From a virus: a stretch of 34,506 nucleotides of DNA. The DNA is taken from the UHGV virus genome UHGV-0828925. One strand, 5' to 3'. The notes beneath the pieces are model-generated. The model was not told the DNA's origin and did not search any database. It worked only from the letters and a program-made list of their open reading frames with translations. This document shows, piece after piece, positions 15,461 through 19,229 of this stretch. The translations under genes were made by a program, and so were the position numbers. How positions within the stretch are numbered: position 1 is the stretch's first letter; each line of letters starts with the position of its first letter.

Positions 15461-15955
15461 TTATTTTATAGTTTTTATGAATTCTTTATTAAATCCCTTC
15501 GCTTCTCCGGGGTATCTTCCGAAGACAATTTTTATAAAAACAGAAAAAATAAAGATAGCAACGCTTAACAACAATTGCAGTATCATTGGAACCCAAAGAA
15601 CTACAGGCTCTATATTCATGAAACCAAATATTCTTCCGGCGATCATGGCGAAGTACCACACTGTTATCAGCAAACTTAGTGGCATATGAATTACTGATAT
15701 TACCAATCCAAGAGCATCAGTAATTCTGTTTTCAAATTTTTCAGGGGAAAACTTTTCTTTAAGGTAATTCAGTGCGCAGGCCTCATTCTCTGGATTTTCA
15801 GCATTTTTCCCTATAGCAATAGAAATCTCAGATATCCTTGATTCAATTCTTTTACGTTTAATAAAACTAGAAAAAAAGAACCACGCAATCTGCAACCCTA
15901 TCCCCAGAAATAGAGTTGCGGCAACTAGCACAGCGTAACTCATAGAATCAGACAC
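15461..15955 (-). CDS. Multi-pass inner-membrane protein, putative superinfection exclusion protein (SieA-like by position)
   Basis: 164 aa with an N-terminal TM helix and 2-3 C-terminal TM helices; AT-rich codon usage; sits between gp16 and mnt where P22 carries sieA. Function inferred from position only. Confidence 0.6.
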
Positions 15956-16037: not shown

Positions 16038-16073
16038 ACGTGCATATTTAAATATTGCACGTTACAACGTGCA
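16038..16073. promoter_or_regulatory. Overlapping palindromes in the divergent intergenic region (candidate operator/promoter)
   Basis: TGCATATTTAAATATTGCA (near-palindrome) overlapping TGCACGTT-AC-AACGTGCA (8-bp inverted repeat), between the divergent membrane-protein gene and the 16109 gene. Confidence 0.5.
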
Positions 16074-16108
16074 TGTGTATGATTGACTTATCAATCACAA
16101 CACGAGAT

Positions 16109-17122
16109 ATGCTCATGAAAAATGATGATGTTAGTGGGAAGGCCAAAGGCGGTAAGGCACGCGCGGCAAAAATGACAGCAGAGCAAAGAAAAGAATCCTC
16201 AAGAAAGGCTGTTGCCGCAAAAAAAGAAAAAGCTTTATTGCCCGTATCTGCGAATGAGGGAAAGTTAAAGATCGGTGATGCGGAATTAGATGTCGCGGTT
16301 CTCGAAAATGGACGGCGTATCATATCACAAGCTTCTGTTTTTAAAGCATTTGGCCGACCACAAAGAGGGGGTAGAGCACCTCAAGAAGAGGGGGTGATCA
16401 ATATGCCCGCTTTTATGGATGCTGCAAACCTTAAAAAATATATAAATCAAGATGTTATGGATGTGATCAATAAGGTCAAATACAAGACGATTACTGGCTC
16501 CGTCCAGGAAGGTTATGACGCATCCATAATACCTCTTGTCTGCGATGTTTATTTAAAGGCAAGAGAGGCAGGCGCTATCACCAGGCCAAACCAGTTAGAG
16601 ACAGCCAAGAAAGCTGAAATTCTGGTGCGCTCATTAGCTAAAGTCGGAATAATAGCGCTTGTTGATGAAGCGACGGGGTACCAGCGAGATAGAGAAAAAG
16701 ATGCACTCGCCAAAATACTCGAGGCCTTTGTCGCAAAGGAAATTCAACCTTATATTACAACATTTCCTGCTGATTATTATGAAGAGCTTTTCAGGTTAAG
16801 GGGCTTAGAATACCCGCCGGAAAATCCCCGCTTCCGGCCTCAGTATTTTGGCGTTTTGACAAATGATATCGTCTACAAGAGATTGGCACCAAACATCCTT
16901 GAGGAGCTTAAAAAGCAGAACGTAAAGGCCTCAAAAGGTACAAAGTTGTTTCAGGGGCTGACGCCAAATATTGGATATCAAAAATTAAGAGAGCATCTGT
17001 CATCAACCGTTACGATTATGAAGCTATCTAACGACTATTCAGATTTTATTGCAAAAATGAATCGCCTGCATCCAAGGTTTGAGGATGTGAAAACAGACGA
17101 ACTGGATGATTCAGACAAGTAA
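16109..17122 (+). CDS. Hypothetical protein with highly basic Lys/Ala-rich N-terminal tail (accessory gene)
   Basis: About 337 aa; N-terminal 60 residues K/A/R-rich (GKAKGGKARAAKMTAEQRKESSRKAVAAKKEK); AT-rich; start ambiguous between the ATGs at 16109 and 16115. Confidence 0.7.
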   Translation: MLMKNDDVSGKAKGGKARAAKMTAEQRKESSRKAVAAKKEKALLPVSANEGKLKIGDAELDVAVLENGRRIISQASVFKAFGRPQRGGRAPQEEGVINMPAFMDAANLKKYINQDVMDVINKVKYKTITGSVQEGYDASIIPLVCDVYLKAREAGAITRPNQLETAKKAEILVRSLAKVGIIALVDEATGYQRDREKDALAKILEAFVAKEIQPYITTFPADYYEELFRLRGLEYPPENPRFRPQYFGVLTNDIVYKRLAPNILEELKKQNVKASKGTKLFQGLTPNIGYQKLREHLSSTVTIMKLSNDYSDFIAKMNRLHPRFEDVKTDELDDSDK

Positions 17123-17126
17123 CAGT

Positions 17127-17150
17127 AACCCACCTTCAGGTGGGTTTTTT
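17127..17150 (+). terminator. Rho-independent terminator between convergent genes
   Basis: AACCCACC-TTCA-GGTGGGTT followed by TTTT; overlaps the mnt stop codon on the opposite strand. Confidence 0.7.
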
Positions 17151-17387
17151 GTACAAATCCTTCAGCGTATCAAACACCATCTTCTTAACAAGCTCTGACT
17201 GCTCATCAGCGAGTCGTTCTGCATCGTCGCGATAGCCTGCAATCGGTGATGGTTTTGATAGCGCATCCTGAACGATTTGTAATAACTCTGAGTTCATTGA
17301 CCTTCCGTTAGCCTCTGCTCTTAATTTCAATTTTTCTCTTACTTCCAAAGGCATACGGAAGTTAAAGTGCGGATCGTCTCTAGCCAT
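17136..17387 (-). CDS. mnt: Mnt repressor (ribbon-helix-helix)
   Basis: 83 aa MARDDPHFNFRMPLEVREKLKLRAEANGRSMNSELLQIVQDAL..., near-identical to my recollection of P22 Mnt. Confidence 0.9.
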   Translation of the reverse strand: MARDDPHFNFRMPLEVREKLKLRAEANGRSMNSELLQIVQDALSKPSPIAGYRDDAERLADEQSELVKKMVFDTLKDLYKKPT

Positions 17388-17410
17388 GCCATCACTCCAA
17401 GTTAGTATCT

Positions 17411-17674
17411 CTAACTTTCGTCTTTATTGTTGCTATACATGCATTTCAACTTCTCAACATCATGTTCAAGATCTATCAATCGTGATGCTATAGTTGCAAG
17501 GTCTAGTGCTTGAATGTGTTTATTTTTTTCGGTCCATGCTTCAAGTGCCGCGACCATCTCAGCATTTAATGAACGAGAATTAGCCTCAGCCAGTTCAATA
17601 AGACGTTCCTTTATCTCTACAGGAAGCCTCAGATTCACTTGAGGGTTTTTGTACTTACGATCAGACATCGGCAC
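17411..17674 (-). CDS. Second ribbon-helix-helix (Arc/Mnt-family) DNA-binding protein
   Basis: 87 aa; N-terminal NLRLPVEIKERLIELAEANSRSLNAEMVAALE matches the RHH beta-strand/helix pattern; upstream of and co-oriented with mnt. Confidence 0.75.
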   Translation of the reverse strand: MPMSDRKYKNPQVNLRLPVEIKERLIELAEANSRSLNAEMVAALEAWTEKNKHIQALDLATIASRLIDLEHDVEKLKCMYSNNKDES

Positions 17675-17704
17675 ATCCTGAATAATTTTTTACCACAGGA
17701 TATG

Positions 17705-17743
17705 TAGGTATCTATTGACTATCAATGCGTACCTAAATACTAT
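17705..17743 (+). promoter_or_regulatory. Rightward Pant-like promoter with overlapping inverted repeat (candidate Arc/Mnt operator)
   Basis: -35 TTGACT (17715..17720), 17-bp spacer, -10 TACTAT (17738..17743); TAGGTA...TACCTA inverted repeat spans the -35. Confidence 0.55.
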
Positions 17744-17773
17744 GTATGCGTACCACATACAACGGAGGATGCA

Positions 17774-17914
17774 ATGAAGGTAAAAACACTGCGTATGCCA
17801 GAGAAGTTAGAAAAAATCCTTGAAGAGAAAGCAAAGGAAGAGTGTCGCTCATTTAGTGCAGAAGTAATTAAACGGGTGATGGACAGCCTGAAGAGAGAGG
17901 GGATAACGGTATGA
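17774..17914 (+). CDS. arc: Arc-like ribbon-helix-helix repressor
   Basis: 46 aa MKVKTLRMPEKLEKILEEKAKEECRSFSAEVIKRVMDSLKREGITV; GGAGG SD 5 nt upstream; same architecture as P22 Arc; stop overlaps next ATG (ATGA). Below the 60-aa track threshold, found by reading. Confidence 0.7.
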   Translation: MKVKTLRMPEKLEKILEEKAKEECRSFSAEVIKRVMDSLKREGITV

Positions 17915-18114
17915 GTAAAGAATGTTGTTTCTGCGGCATTAGCGAATCAGACGCTGATCAAACATACATTTACTCTAAAGAAACAGGTCGGATGCTGTGT
18001 AGTGACTGCGTGTTGGACATCATAAGATACAAGCATCTTGGATGTTCTGCCAGCATTAGCAATATAGGTGAAGTATATGAAGGGAAAGATATAACTGATA
18101 GAGCAGAAAGTTGA
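17911..18114 (+). CDS. Small Cys-rich protein (possible zinc ribbon)
   Basis: 67 aa with CCFC...CSDC spacing (two Cys pairs); translationally coupled to arc. Confidence 0.5.
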   Translation: MSKECCFCGISESDADQTYIYSKETGRMLCSDCVLDIIRYKHLGCSASISNIGEVYEGKDITDRAES

Positions 18115-18176
18115 AGCCCCAACTGCGGTAACAGTCAGGACTTCGGTATCAACAAATCGGATTAGGAAATATTGAC

Positions 18177-19055
18177 ATGAAAAGTATAGCAAAGGCACAA
18201 AACGATTTCACCATCTTCAAATTCGGCGACAGTGAAATCCGCGTCATCAACAAATGCGGTGAGCCGTGGTTTGTAGCAAAAGATGTTTGTGATGCTTTAA
18301 CCCTGACTAACTCACGCAAGGCGCTTACTGCACTTGATGACGATGAAAAGGGAGTAACTTTAAGTTACACCCTTGGTGGTGAGCAGAATCTAAGCATTGT
18401 TAGCGAATCAGGTATGTATACATTGGTTCTGCGCTGCCGCGATGCTGTCAATAAAGGTTCGGTCCCGCACAAATTCCGCAAGTGGGTAACAGCAGAAGTT
18501 CTACCTTCAATTCGCAAACATGGCGAGTATGTGAAAGGCAAGAAAACCACTGTTGAGGAAAGAACGCCGCTACGCGATGCAGTAAACATGCTGGTAGGAA
18601 AGAAAGGACTTCGCTATGACGATGCATACAATATGGTTCATCAGCGTTTTGGTATTGACAGCATTGATGAACTTTCAATTGAACAAATCCCGCAAGCCGT
18701 AGAGTACATCCACAGGGTAGTGCTTGAAGGCGAATTCATCGGCAAACAAGAGAAGAAAACCGACGAGCTTTCTGCAAAAGAAGCAAACAGCCTTGTATGG
18801 TTATGGGATTATGCCAATCGTTCACAGGCATTATTCCGCGAACTGTATCCGGCATTAAAACAAATTCAATCGAACTATTCCGGCAGATGCTACGACTATG
18901 GTCATGAATTCTCGTATGTTATCGGAATGGCGAGAGACGTTTTAATCAATCACACACGAGATGTTGATATCAATGAGCCAGACGGACCAACGAATCTTTC
19001 CGCATGGATGAGACTTAAGAATAAAGAATTACCTCCTTCAGTACATAACTACTGA
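18177..19055 (+). CDS. ant: Antirepressor with Bro-N-type N-terminal domain
   Basis: 292 aa; N-terminal [30 protein letters not shown]... resembles the Bro-N domain; occupies the ant position after arc. Confidence 0.75.
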
Positions 19056-19074
19056 CAGATAACCAACGCAACGA

Positions 19075-19098
19075 CCCAGCTTCGGCTGGGTTTTTTAT
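19075..19098 (+). terminator. Rho-independent terminator after ant
   Basis: ACCCAGC-TTCG-GCTGGGT followed by TTTTTT. Confidence 0.8.
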
Positions 19099-19108
19099 GC
19101 CCAAAATT

Positions 19109-19229
19109 CACCGTAGCCACACTTAGGCAATGAGCTTGAAGGAGAGACCTACACAAAAAGTGTAGGTCGAAAAGCGAACAAAATAACTTCCGAAAAAGTT
19201 GTTTTATCACAAAAAACTCACCGTAGCCA
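19109..19229 (+). repeat. Direct repeats TCACCGTAGCCA flanking a hairpin upstream of the tailspike gene
   Basis: AAA(T/C)TCACCGTAGCCA at 19105..19120 and 19213..19229; hairpin ACCTACAC-AAAAA-GTGTAGGT at 19147..19167 between them. Confidence 0.55.

What the first reader, a model, noticed from the sequence alone, without database searches (positions are those of the whole stretch)
17411..18114. Expanded immI regulatory circuit: extra ribbon-helix-helix protein and a Cys-rich ORF between arc and ant
P22 has mnt plus arc-ant. Here a second RHH gene precedes mnt on the same strand, and a 67-aa Cys-rich ORF is translationally coupled between arc and a Bro-N-type antirepressor. A Pant-like promoter with an overlapping TAGGTA...TACCTA inverted repeat sits between the divergent units. 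The additional regulators suggest a rewired antirepressor switch.
Basis: partly seen in the sequence, partly recalled or inferred. Interest (0 to 1): 0.5.

Follow-up and report, generated by a model that had tools for sequence, protein, structure and literature searches.

The report
CUS-3-type mosaic antirepressor control region
This is the antirepressor control region of a P22-like E. coli phage, a mosaic variant already sequenced in phage CUS-3 and many prophages, that keeps a second repressor with no binding site of its own and carries an uncharacterised small zinc-finger gene resembling the N-terminal domain of the host unfoldase ClpX.

Summary
Three ribbon-helix-helix genes, an ATGA-coupled 67-aa Cys-rich ORF, a Bro-N/P22_AR_C antirepressor, divergent promoters and an inverted repeat are all at the stated coordinates.

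The arrangement is not unique: phage CUS-3 and about 45-56 complete E. coli genomes carry it.

It is a cassette swap. The P22 Pant/Oarc/Omnt/arc core was replaced by a foreign core: RHH2, new promoters and operators, arc2 and the Cys ORF. The flanking P22-type mnt, sar and ant C-terminus were kept.

RHH2 is probably the cognate Mnt-type repressor, because RHH2+arc2 cassettes exist without the P22-type mnt. The P22-type mnt is the extra gene. Its operator is absent from the window and from the whole CUS-3 genome, yet its DNA-binding half is under strong purifying selection. I infer it acts in trans on P22-type immI phages.

The Cys ORF is a real gene and most likely a free-standing ClpX-type zinc-binding domain. 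Distant homologues and a canonical ClpX-ZBD protein occupy the same arc-to-ant slot, and some related cassettes add a ClpP-family gene. Its function is unknown.

Verdict: a new variant of a known kind, of moderate interest.

The parts
17127..17146 (.). GC-rich hairpin between the P63C gene and mnt. It is terminator-like with a T-run on the + strand, and is shared with P22 downstream of mnt.
   Evidence: terminator scan; P22 sequence for comparison
17136..17387 (-). P22-type mnt (83 aa, 93% identical to P22 Mnt). The DNA-reading N-terminal strand RDDPHFNFR is identical to P22. It is the second gene of the leftward operon, and no cognate operator is present in cis.
   Evidence: identity; no Omnt; pN/pS about 0.06 in codons 1-52
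17411..17668 (-). RHH2, an 85-aa Mnt-like ribbon-helix-helix protein (a GTG at 17674 would add 2 aa). It is the inferred cognate maintenance repressor of this cassette. Its beta-strand PQVNLRLP resembles P22 Arc PQFNLRWP.
   Evidence: Pfam Arc 3e-10; phrog_795 over the full length, the same family as Mnt; (occurs without the P22-type mnt)
17697..17725 (-). Pmnt-like leftward promoter TTGATA-17-TATCCT
17715..17743 (+). Pant-like rightward promoter TTGACT-17-TACTAT
   Evidence: same position relative to arc as P22 Pant
17701..17739 (.). Inverted repeat (18-nt arms, 14 of 18 complementary) with outer TAGGTA/TACCTA and inner TTGA/TCAA. It spans both -35 hexamers and is a candidate operator.
   Evidence: (12 of 2000 shuffles reach it). 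CUS-3 has TAGGTG in the left arm.
17743..17761 (.). Dyad TGTATG-N7-CATACA at the predicted start site and leader of the rightward promoter. This is the position Omnt occupies in P22, so it is a candidate operator.
   Evidence: positional analogy only
17774..17914 (+). arc2, a 46-aa Arc-family repressor (38% identical to P22 Arc over 39 aa)
   Evidence: (deposited as 'Arc family DNA-binding protein')
17911..18114 (+). 67-aa Cys-rich ORF with C5-x2-C8 ... C30-x2-C33. It is a ClpX-type zinc-binding-domain-like protein, translationally coupled to arc2. Its stop codon lies inside the conserved sar terminator sequence.
   Evidence: (phrog_7150)
18109..18175 (-). sar antisense RNA, complementary to the ant ribosome-binding region
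   Evidence: RF00262, 68.5 bits, E 2e-13
18183..18211 (-). Psar promoter GTGAAA-17-TATACT with an extended TG, inside the 5' end of ant
18177..19055 (+). ant antirepressor, with a Bro-N N-terminal domain and a P22_AR_C C-terminal domain
   Evidence: (phrog_245, 8e-112)
19073..19092 (+). Intrinsic terminator-like hairpin after ant

Best explanation
This is the immunity-I ('ant moron') region of a P22-like (Lederbergvirus) E. coli phage of the CUS-3 type. It lies between the sieA/P63C genes and the tailspike gene.

Origin: a modular replacement. The P22 core (Pant/Pmnt, Oarc, Omnt, arc) was replaced by a foreign core consisting of RHH2, a new pair of back-to-back promoters with new operators, arc2 and a small zinc-finger gene. 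The P22-type mnt, the sar antisense RNA and the C-terminal half of ant were retained at the flanks.

Inferred operation:
- In the lysogen, the leftward promoter makes an RHH2-mnt transcript.
- RHH2, a Mnt-like tetramer, holds the rightward promoter off, so arc2, the zinc-finger gene and ant stay silent.
- On infection the rightward promoter fires, and Arc2 then shuts it down.
- sar RNA pairs with the ant ribosome-binding site and limits translation.
- The P22-type Mnt has no site in its own genome. It most likely acts in trans, silencing the ant gene of a superinfecting P22-type immI phage. That would give the prophage immunity to two classes of antirepressor.
- The zinc-finger protein is a free copy of the ClpX N-terminal zinc-binding domain, made together with Arc2 and Ant. 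It most likely binds clients of the ClpX N-domain, or the N-domain itself, and so modulates ClpXP proteolysis while the antirepressor operon is on.

Shown here: gene content, homologies, cassette boundaries, absence of Omnt, sar, and selection on mnt. Inferred: which repressor binds where, the trans-immunity role and the ClpX-related role.
For: Context
- The upstream gene is 93% identical to P22 SieA.
- A tailspike with the P22-type head-binding N-terminus follows ant.

Cassette boundaries
- P22 homology runs through mnt and its ribosome-binding site and stops at ...CCAAGTTAGT, right after the RHH2 stop codon.
- It resumes at AGTTGAAGCCCCAACTGCGG, the sar terminator.

sar
- RF00262, 68.5 bits.

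RHH2 as the cognate Mnt analogue
- It matches phrog_795 over its full length, as Mnt does.
- It is 33% identical to Mnt across both domains.
- RHH2+arc2 with an identical intergenic region occur without any P22-type mnt in L009, L010 and L011 and in 9 of 17 IMG/VR loci.

Orphan mnt
- There are 0 matches to GGTCCACGGTGGACC at up to 3 mismatches in the window or in the full 40-kb CUS-3 genome.
- The ORF is intact in all 8 double-mnt IMG/VR loci.
- Codons 1-52 show pS 0.53-0.63 against pN 0.03-0.065.
- P22-type immI with exact Omnt and Oarc circulates in E. coli (L016).

Zinc finger
- Salmonella homologues at about 30-37% identity (P0014, P0019; UniRef names P0019 'ClpX-type ZB domain') keep C5, C8, C30 and C33. 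They sit in the same ATGA-coupled slot between arc and ant.
- E. coli AR_0118 has a canonical ClpX-ZBD protein in that slot (Pfam zf-C4_ClpX 7.6e-11; PDB 1OVX 5e-8).
- hhalign of the two families gives 78% probability, E 1.7e-5.
- The AlphaFold model has pLDDT 75-79 over residues 1-40. Its best Foldseek PDB hits are ClpX and its ZBD (2ds6: probability 0.93, TM 0.68).
- The identical ORF follows two different arc types.
- A ClpP-family gene rides on the mnt transcript in 10 related IMG/VR loci and in the Salmonella loci.
Against: - No binding, expression or phenotype data exist for any component.
- The intergenic region is almost invariant among relatives, so no operator could be assigned by covariation.
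- CUS-3 carries TAGGTG in one arm of the inverted repeat.
- RHH2 lacks a Pfam Repressor_Mnt hit.
- The window ORF itself gets no Pfam ClpX hit, and P0014 scores only 13 bits against a cutoff of 27.
- The AlphaFold alignment included a true ClpX-ZBD homologue, which may bias the model.
- The ORF's DNA differs at 0-2 sites among 29 loci, so it gives no selection signal.
- The ORF is broken in the O157:H7 lambdoid prophage copies examined. PGAP does not call it.
- The window has no ClpP-family gene.
- Selection on the orphan mnt could reflect repeated import from single-mnt phages rather than function in this arrangement.
Confidence: 0.6

Rival explanations
1. One reading: the P22-type mnt is the working maintenance repressor of this Pant-like promoter, and RHH2 is an added accessory regulator layered on top.
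For: The mnt is 93% identical to P22 Mnt and under purifying selection. Both genes share one transcript. Motifs such as TAGGT and ACCAC in the intergenic region loosely recall parts of the Omnt half-site TAGGTCCAC.
Against: No Omnt-like site exists at up to 3 mismatches in the window or in CUS-3. P22 homology ends before the promoter region. The same promoter/operator region, RHH2 and arc2 function as a unit without any P22-type mnt in many loci.
Confidence: 0.1
2. The 67-aa Cys-rich ORF is not a functional gene. It is filler or a decaying remnant between arc and the sar/ant leader, and only the DNA or RNA matters.
For: PGAP and the CUS-3 record leave it unannotated. It gets no Pfam or NCBIfam hit. 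It is frameshifted in the O157:H7-type copies examined, and hundreds of O157 genomes carry that copy type. It has too little DNA variation for a dN/dS test.
Against: Homologues at 30-37% identity keep all four Cys ligands, the N-terminal MSKECCFCG motif and the same ATGA-coupled slot in Salmonella. A canonical ClpX-ZBD gene fills the same slot elsewhere. The ORF is intact and identical after two different arc types. The AlphaFold model gives a folded zinc-knuckle-plus-helix domain. A Shine-Dalgarno sequence is present.
Confidence: 0.1
3. The zinc finger is a nucleic-acid-binding regulator, for example a translational activator or repressor acting on the ant leader-sar duplex (as Mu Com acts on mom mRNA) or a DNA-binding co-repressor. 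It would then have nothing to do with ClpX.
For: It sits immediately upstream of the sar/ant leader, and its stop codon lies within the sar terminator. Small C4 zinc ribbons often bind nucleic acids (general knowledge). The fold matches are generic treble-clef fingers with weak scores.
Against: The only specific sequence and fold signals point to the ClpX ZBD. UniRef names the Salmonella homologue a ClpX-type ZB domain. A bona fide ClpX-ZBD protein occupies the same slot. A ClpP-family gene co-occurs in related cassettes.
Confidence: 0.2
4. The operator-less P22-type mnt is a neutral relic of the recombination that installed the new cassette and has no present function.
For: The region is highly mosaic. 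mnt itself is a recombinant: relative to P22, pS is 0.63 in codons 1-52 and 0 in codons 53-83. About half of the RHH2 cassettes lack it.
Against: It is intact in every double-mnt locus examined, with an invariant DNA-reading strand and pN/pS of about 0.05-0.1 in the DNA-binding half, even between double-mnt loci. It keeps its own Shine-Dalgarno sequence 23 nt after the RHH2 stop codon.
Confidence: 0.2

Closest known systems
Phage P22 immunity I region (mnt / Pmnt-Pant / arc / sar / ant)
   Same: Same genomic slot between sieA and the tailspike gene. Divergent RHH repressor units around overlapping promoters. A P22-type mnt (93%). A sar RNA above the Rfam threshold, with Psar inside ant. The ant C-terminal domain P22_AR_C. 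Also the same arc-stop-to-ant spacer.
   Different: The P22 Pant/Oarc/Omnt/arc core is gone. It is replaced by RHH2, new promoters and repeats, and a 46-aa arc2 that is only 38% identical to Arc. An extra coupled zinc-finger gene sits between arc and ant. The ant N-terminus is Bro-N instead of P22_AR_N. mnt has no operator in cis.
Phage CUS-3 (CP000711) ant moron, and the equivalent prophages of UTI89 and other E. coli
   Same: Identical order: mnt, RHH2, intergenic region, arc2, Cys ORF (100% identical protein), sar. The match is 95.5% DNA identity over the matched parts.
   Different: CUS-3 has a different ant N-terminal domain, a different mnt C-terminus, other genes to the left (no P63C gene) and an endosialidase tailspike. 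In its record, arc2 and the Cys ORF are unannotated ('bsq2'). The epsilon34 paper (PMC2629481) stated that CUS-3 apparently lacks arc.
ClpX N-terminal zinc-binding domain (Pfam PF06689; PDB 1OVX, 2DS5-2DS8)
   Same: C-x2-C ... C-x2-C with the CxFCG motif. The second CxxC opens a helix (CV..DII). Profile-profile match at 78% probability. ClpX ZBD chains are the best Foldseek hits.
   Different: It is a free-standing 67-aa protein with no AAA+ module. The inter-knuckle loop is 3 residues longer than in the E. coli ClpX fragment shown, and there is a 27-aa low-confidence tail. It is below the Pfam threshold. Zinc binding and dimerisation are untested.
Stand-alone 'ClpX C4-type zinc finger protein' of the E. 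coli AR_0118 prophage (WP_047668240) and Salmonella P0019
   Same: Same slot and same ATGA coupling to arc, upstream of sar/ant.
   Different: Only about 25-37% identical to the window protein. AR_0118 passes the Pfam ClpX-ZBD threshold and the window protein does not. The Salmonella loci also carry a ClpP-family gene after mnt, which this window lacks.

Membership tests
P22-type immunity I region | Located in the late operon between the ejection-protein/sieA genes and the tailspike gene | tested here: met
   The SieA homologue at 15461-15955(-) is 93% identical to P22 SieA. The tailspike N-terminus matches P22-like phages.
P22-type immunity I region | Divergent mnt and arc-ant transcription units encoding Arc/Mnt-type RHH repressors | tested here: met
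   Pfam Arc hits for all three small proteins; Repressor_Mnt for 17136-17387.
P22-type immunity I region | sar antisense RNA opposite the ant ribosome-binding site | tested here: met
   RF00262, 68.5 bits against a gathering score of 43, at 18109-18175(-). Psar found.
P22-type immunity I region | P22 operators Omnt (AGGTCCACGGTGGACCT) and Oarc at Pant | tested here: not met
   0 matches at up to 3 mismatches in the window and in the CUS-3 genome. The intergenic sequence is unrelated to that of P22.
P22-type immunity I region | Repressors actually bind the intergenic operators and control ant | not testable with these tools
   Needs EMSA, footprinting or reporter assays.
Mnt repressor (Arc-type RHH plus C-terminal tetramerisation coiled coil) | RHH2 has an N-terminal RHH domain | tested here: met
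   Pfam Arc 3.4e-10 over residues 9-52.
Mnt repressor (Arc-type RHH plus C-terminal tetramerisation coiled coil) | RHH2 has the Mnt C-terminal domain (PF11423) | tested here: inconclusive
   No PF11423 hit. However, phrog_795 matches residues 1-82 of both Mnt and RHH2, and the BLASTP alignment to Mnt extends to residue 83.
ClpX-type zinc-binding domain (PF06689 / PROSITE ClpX-type ZB) | Four Cys ligands as CxxC ... CxxC, with the second pair at the start of a helix | tested here: met
   C5, C8, C30 and C33 are invariant in the family alignment. The AlphaFold helix spans residues 31-42.
ClpX-type zinc-binding domain (PF06689 / PROSITE ClpX-type ZB) | Scores above the curated Pfam threshold | tested here: not met
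   No PF06689 hit for the window protein. The homologue P0014 scores 13.2 bits against a cutoff of 27.
ClpX-type zinc-binding domain (PF06689 / PROSITE ClpX-type ZB) | Profile-level and fold-level similarity to the ClpX ZBD | tested here: inconclusive
ClpX-type zinc-binding domain (PF06689 / PROSITE ClpX-type ZB) | Binds zinc, dimerises, and binds ClpX adaptor or substrate tails | not testable with these tools
   Biochemistry is required.
P22-type antirepressor Ant | P22_AR_C C-terminal domain | tested here: met
   PF10548, 1.8e-29.
P22-type antirepressor Ant | P22_AR_N N-terminal domain | tested here: not met
   The N-terminus is Bro-N (PF02498, 5.6e-20), not P22_AR_N. The domain swap is shared with Kapi1, EC.P3 and the O157 prophages.

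The most novel reading that the evidence does not exclude
The antirepressor operon carries a free ClpX N-domain mimic. When Pant is on, the mimic would titrate or re-route ClpXP, for example by protecting Ant or another ZBD-dependent substrate, or by working with the ClpP-family protein that rides on the mnt transcript in sister cassettes. That would add a proteolytic layer to the immI lysis-lysogeny switch. In parallel, the operator-less P22-type Mnt would be a dedicated trans-acting immunity factor that silences the antirepressor of heterologous P22-type immI phages.
Probability: 0.25. Interest if true: 0.65.

Novelty: new variant of a known kind. Interest (0 to 1): 0.45.

Why it matters
P22 immI is a textbook regulatory module, and Arc and Mnt are paradigm RHH proteins. 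Its natural variants have hardly been studied.

This variant is widespread. The exact zinc-finger protein is found on at least 1000 contigs and is present in UTI89 and other K1/ExPEC strains. It offers two directly testable ideas.
- A prophage can stack repressors of different specificity to resist antirepressor attack by other phages.
- Phages place a stand-alone copy of the ClpX substrate-recognition domain, sometimes together with a ClpP-family gene, inside the antirepressor switch.

It also corrects a published statement that CUS-3 lacks arc. And it identifies a recurrently missed gene that current annotation pipelines skip.

Tried and rejected
- **Single-sequence AlphaFold.** The Cys ORF model had pLDDT 56, and its Foldseek matches were generic RING/PHD fingers. 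It was superseded by the model built from a 6-sequence alignment.
- **Profile search of PDB sequences with the Cys-ORF family.** Nothing meaningful.
- **Exhaustive phmmer against 1.84 billion representatives.** 12 of the 13 hits were long Cys-rich repeat proteins that I take to be compositional. Only P0014 was a plausible homologue.
- **Word-indexed searches.** These returned only a handful of relatives.
- **GTDB genome-contig scan.** It found no relative.
- **Operator assignment by comparing relatives.** This failed because the 105-nt intergenic region is nearly invariant. Where the RHH2 gene diverges (L029), the change looks like a recombination boundary, not covariation.
- **dN/dS on the Cys ORF.** Not possible, with 0-2 differences among 29 loci.
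- **Relaxed Omnt core search.** The only match was a chance-level hit at 1793.
- **Literature.** Searches for phage-encoded ClpX-ZBD proteins or a ClpX link to antirepressors found nothing relevant. The CUS-3 paper (PMC1951898) is not held.
- **Antisense ORF.** The 83-aa ORF at 17947-18198(-) was considered and set aside. It lies downstream of the sar terminator on that strand and was not tested for homologues.
Full report
**1. What is in the sequence**

ORF listing and direct reading give this order.
- sieA homologue at 15461-15955(-), 93% identical to P22 SieA.
- A P63C-domain gene at 16055-17122(+), 99.7% identical to Stx-phage 933W L0095.
- A hairpin at 17127-17146.
- mnt at 17136-17387(-).
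- A second RHH gene, 'RHH2', at 17411-17668(-). A GTG at 17674 is possible, but the ATG at 17668 has an AGGA 7 nt upstream and is the start used in CUS-3 and by PGAP.
- A 105-nt intergenic region.
- An arc-like gene, 'arc2', at 17774-17914(+).
- A 67-aa Cys-rich ORF at 17911-18114(+), overlapping the arc2 stop as ATGA.
- A 62-nt spacer.
- ant at 18177-19055(+).
- A terminator at 19073-19092.
- The tailspike gene from 19265.

Pfam gives Arc plus Repressor_Mnt for mnt, and Arc for RHH2 (3e-10) and arc2 (3e-9). It gives Bro-N plus P22_AR_C for ant and nothing for the Cys ORF.

The promoter scan finds TTGACT-17-TACTAT rightward (17715-17743) and TTGATA-17-TATCCT leftward (17725-17697). Their -35 hexamers overlap in TTGACTATCAA. 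Only 12 of 2000 shuffles of the intergenic region reach that value.

**2.

Rfam finds a sar antisense RNA at 18109-18175(-), at 68.5 bits against a gathering score of 43. A Psar-like promoter lies inside the start of ant. The sar terminator sequence AGTTGAAGCCCC supplies the stop codon of the Cys ORF.

**3. It is a cassette swap, not an add-on**

I aligned the window by eye with P22.
- P22 homology runs through mnt and its ribosome-binding site.
- It ends at ...CCAAGTTAGT, where P22 continues into the Pant -35 and this window continues into the RHH2 stop codon.
- It resumes at AGTTGAAGCCCCAACTGCGG, immediately after the P22 arc stop codon.

Everything in between has been replaced by RHH2, a new intergenic region, arc2 and the Cys ORF. 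In P22 that stretch holds Pant, Pmnt, Oarc, Omnt and arc.

The P22 Mnt operator is absent at up to 3 mismatches from the 34.5-kb window. It is also absent from the complete 40.2-kb genome of the closest phage, CUS-3.

**4. The arrangement is already in the databases**

Phage CUS-3 (CP000711) has the same order. Both leftward genes are annotated there as 'mnt', while arc2 and the Cys ORF (100% identical protein) lie unannotated inside a 'boundary sequence'.

The epsilon34 genome paper states that CUS-3 apparently lacks arc and must therefore control ant differently (PMC2629481). The arc2 ORF shows that this is an annotation gap.

In complete E. coli genomes, 56 carry at least 80% of window 17388-18176 and 45 carry at least 80% of window 17100-17700. 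UTI89 is among the former. PGAP calls the three RHH genes 'Arc family DNA-binding protein' but leaves the Cys ORF uncalled.

The exact Cys-ORF protein is nevertheless deposited as 'hypothetical protein' and is seen on at least 1000 contigs. The exact RHH2 is on 692 contigs and the exact arc2 on at least 1000. PHROGs holds the Cys ORF as phrog_7150, of unknown function.

**5. Which RHH gene is the extra one?**

RHH2 matches the same full-length PHROG as Mnt (phrog_795, residues 1-82). It aligns with Mnt across both halves at 33% identity. It is therefore a Mnt-like protein.

Three complete genomes (L009, L010, L011) and 9 of the 17 IMG/VR loci that carry RHH2+arc2 have RHH2, the same intergenic region and arc2, but no P22-type mnt. 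Other small genes follow RHH2 there.

RHH2-promoters-arc2 is therefore a self-sufficient mnt/arc pair. The slot downstream of RHH2 is a cargo slot, and in this window the cargo is a P22-type mnt.

That mnt is not decaying.
- It is intact in all 8 double-mnt IMG/VR loci.
- Its DNA-reading strand RDDPHFNFR is invariant.
- Codons 1-52 show pS 0.53-0.63 against pN 0.03-0.065 in comparisons with P22 and with other double-mnt loci.

P22-type immI with exact Omnt and Oarc exists in E. coli prophages (L016). I therefore infer that the operator-less Mnt acts in trans on incoming P22-type immI phages. This is inference and is untested.

**6. Operators**

Three candidates were identified.
- The 17701-17739 inverted repeat over both -35 hexamers.
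- A TGTATG-N7-CATACA dyad at 17743-17761, in the position Omnt occupies in P22.
- A 21-bp phasing of GTAYC at 17708, 17729 and 17750, together with TACCACA at 17691 and 17751.

The RHH2 strand PQVNLRLP resembles Arc's PQFNLRWP. This hints at a TAG-containing half-site such as TAGGTA.

I could not test any of these. The intergenic region is nearly invariant in relatives, and CUS-3 tolerates TAGGTG in one arm.

**7. The Cys-rich ORF**

The protein has C5-x2-C8 and C30-x2-C33. An exhaustive phmmer search found one credible distant homologue, P0014. Together with P0019 (68 aa, Salmonella), it shares MSKECCFCG and all four Cys residues but has an unrelated tail. UniRef names P0019 a 'ClpX-type ZB domain-containing protein'.

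In Salmonella prophages P0019 lies exactly between arc and ant, with a 4-nt overlap on arc. In E. coli AR_0118 the same slot holds a 60-aa protein that is an unambiguous ClpX zinc-binding-domain homologue (Pfam zf-C4_ClpX 7.6e-11; PDB 1OVX 5e-8).

Three further lines bear on family membership.
- Profile-profile comparison of the two families gives 78% probability, E 1.7e-5, over the CxxC-to-CxxC core.
- An AlphaFold model from a 6-sequence alignment has pLDDT 75-79 for residues 1-40: knuckle, hairpin, then a helix starting at the second CxxC. The tail has low confidence.

The window protein does not reach the Pfam threshold. My judgement is that it is a real gene and a divergent stand-alone ClpX-type zinc-binding domain. 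Membership is probable but not proven.

**8. Mobility and associations of the zinc-finger gene**

In all 40 IMG/VR loci the ORF lies just upstream of ant wherever ant is on the contig. In the 29 loci with an intact copy it directly follows an arc gene.
- 8 loci have RHH2 + arc2 + a P22-type mnt.
- 9 have RHH2 + arc2 only.
- 12 have a different mnt and a different arc (61-71% identical to arc2).
- 11 are the O157-type copies, in which the ORF is broken.

In 10 of the 12 loci of the third type, and in the Salmonella loci, a 178-aa ClpP-family gene (PF00574) is translationally coupled downstream of the mnt-like gene.

The post-arc slot can hold other cargo: an 89-aa membrane/coiled-coil protein in EC.P3 and a 73-aa protein in L009. 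It can also be empty (L010, L011).

The repeated pairing of Clp-related genes with immI is the main reason I favour a ClpXP-related role. The window itself has no ClpP-family gene, and no experiment or paper bears on the question.

**9. Verdict**

The finding is real and well described. It is an instance of the known, highly mosaic 'ant moron'/immI region and is shared with CUS-3 and many prophages.

What is new relative to the literature I could search:
- recognition of arc2 and sar in this type;
- the argument that the P22-type mnt is an operator-less, selected, probably trans-acting gene;
- the identification of the missed 67-aa gene as a ClpX-ZBD-like protein that recurs in the arc-to-ant slot.

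I rate it a new variant of a known kind, with interest 0.45.

Noticed in passing
L003 1192-1728(-); L012-L015 2967-3503(-); L020 1953-2489(-): A 178-aa ClpP-family gene (PF00574) is translationally coupled downstream of the mnt-like gene in related immI cassettes. By eye, Ser/His/Asp candidates seem to be present. 10 IMG/VR loci carry it, and L019 has a remnant (aa 1-71) after its P22-type mnt. It is absent from this window.
   Followed up: partly
L006 2525-4180; L007 2522-4177: immI-like cassettes (mnt-like, arc, broken zinc-finger ORF, sar region, Bro-N ant) are inserted between tail genes L and K of lambdoid O157:H7 prophages. Hundreds of O157 genomes carry this copy type.
   Followed up: partly
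L009 556-1609 and 2503-4000: E. coli strain 203740 carries two immI cassettes in tandem. The first has a P22-like arc, a coupled 73-aa ORF and a truncated Bro-N gene.
   Followed up: no
window 17136-17387: The mnt gene is itself recombinant relative to P22. Codons 1-52 differ at 63% of synonymous sites, and codons 53-83 at none.
   Followed up: yes
window 16055-17122: The P63C-domain gene is 99.7% identical to a gene of Stx-converting phages (933W L0095, BP-4795). It is a recent import into the ant moron of a P22-like phage.
   Followed up: no
window 19108-19119 and 19218-19229: The direct repeat TCACCGTAGCCA occurs twice, 110 bp apart, in the ant-tailspike intergenic region. This corresponds to the CUS-3 'bsq1' boundary sequence area. 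Its function is unknown.
   Followed up: no
window 17691-17697 and 17751-17757: TACCACA occurs just downstream of the -10 of each divergent promoter, in the same orientation and 60 bp apart. L021 has TACCGCA at the second copy.
   Followed up: partly
P0001 (Logan assemblies): A 112-aa arc2-zinc-finger fusion ORF is present in 7 sequences. It may be an indel or a sequencing error at the ATGA junction.
   Followed up: no
L002 3565-4065(-); L005 3579-4037(-): An HNH endonuclease gene is inserted between ant and the tailspike gene in Kapi1 and in the AR_0118 and Salmonella relatives. It is absent from this window.
   Followed up: no
window 17947-18198(-): An 83-aa ORF lies antisense to the zinc-finger gene and the ant start, and spans sar. 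It is probably spurious. It was not tested for homologues.
   Followed up: no
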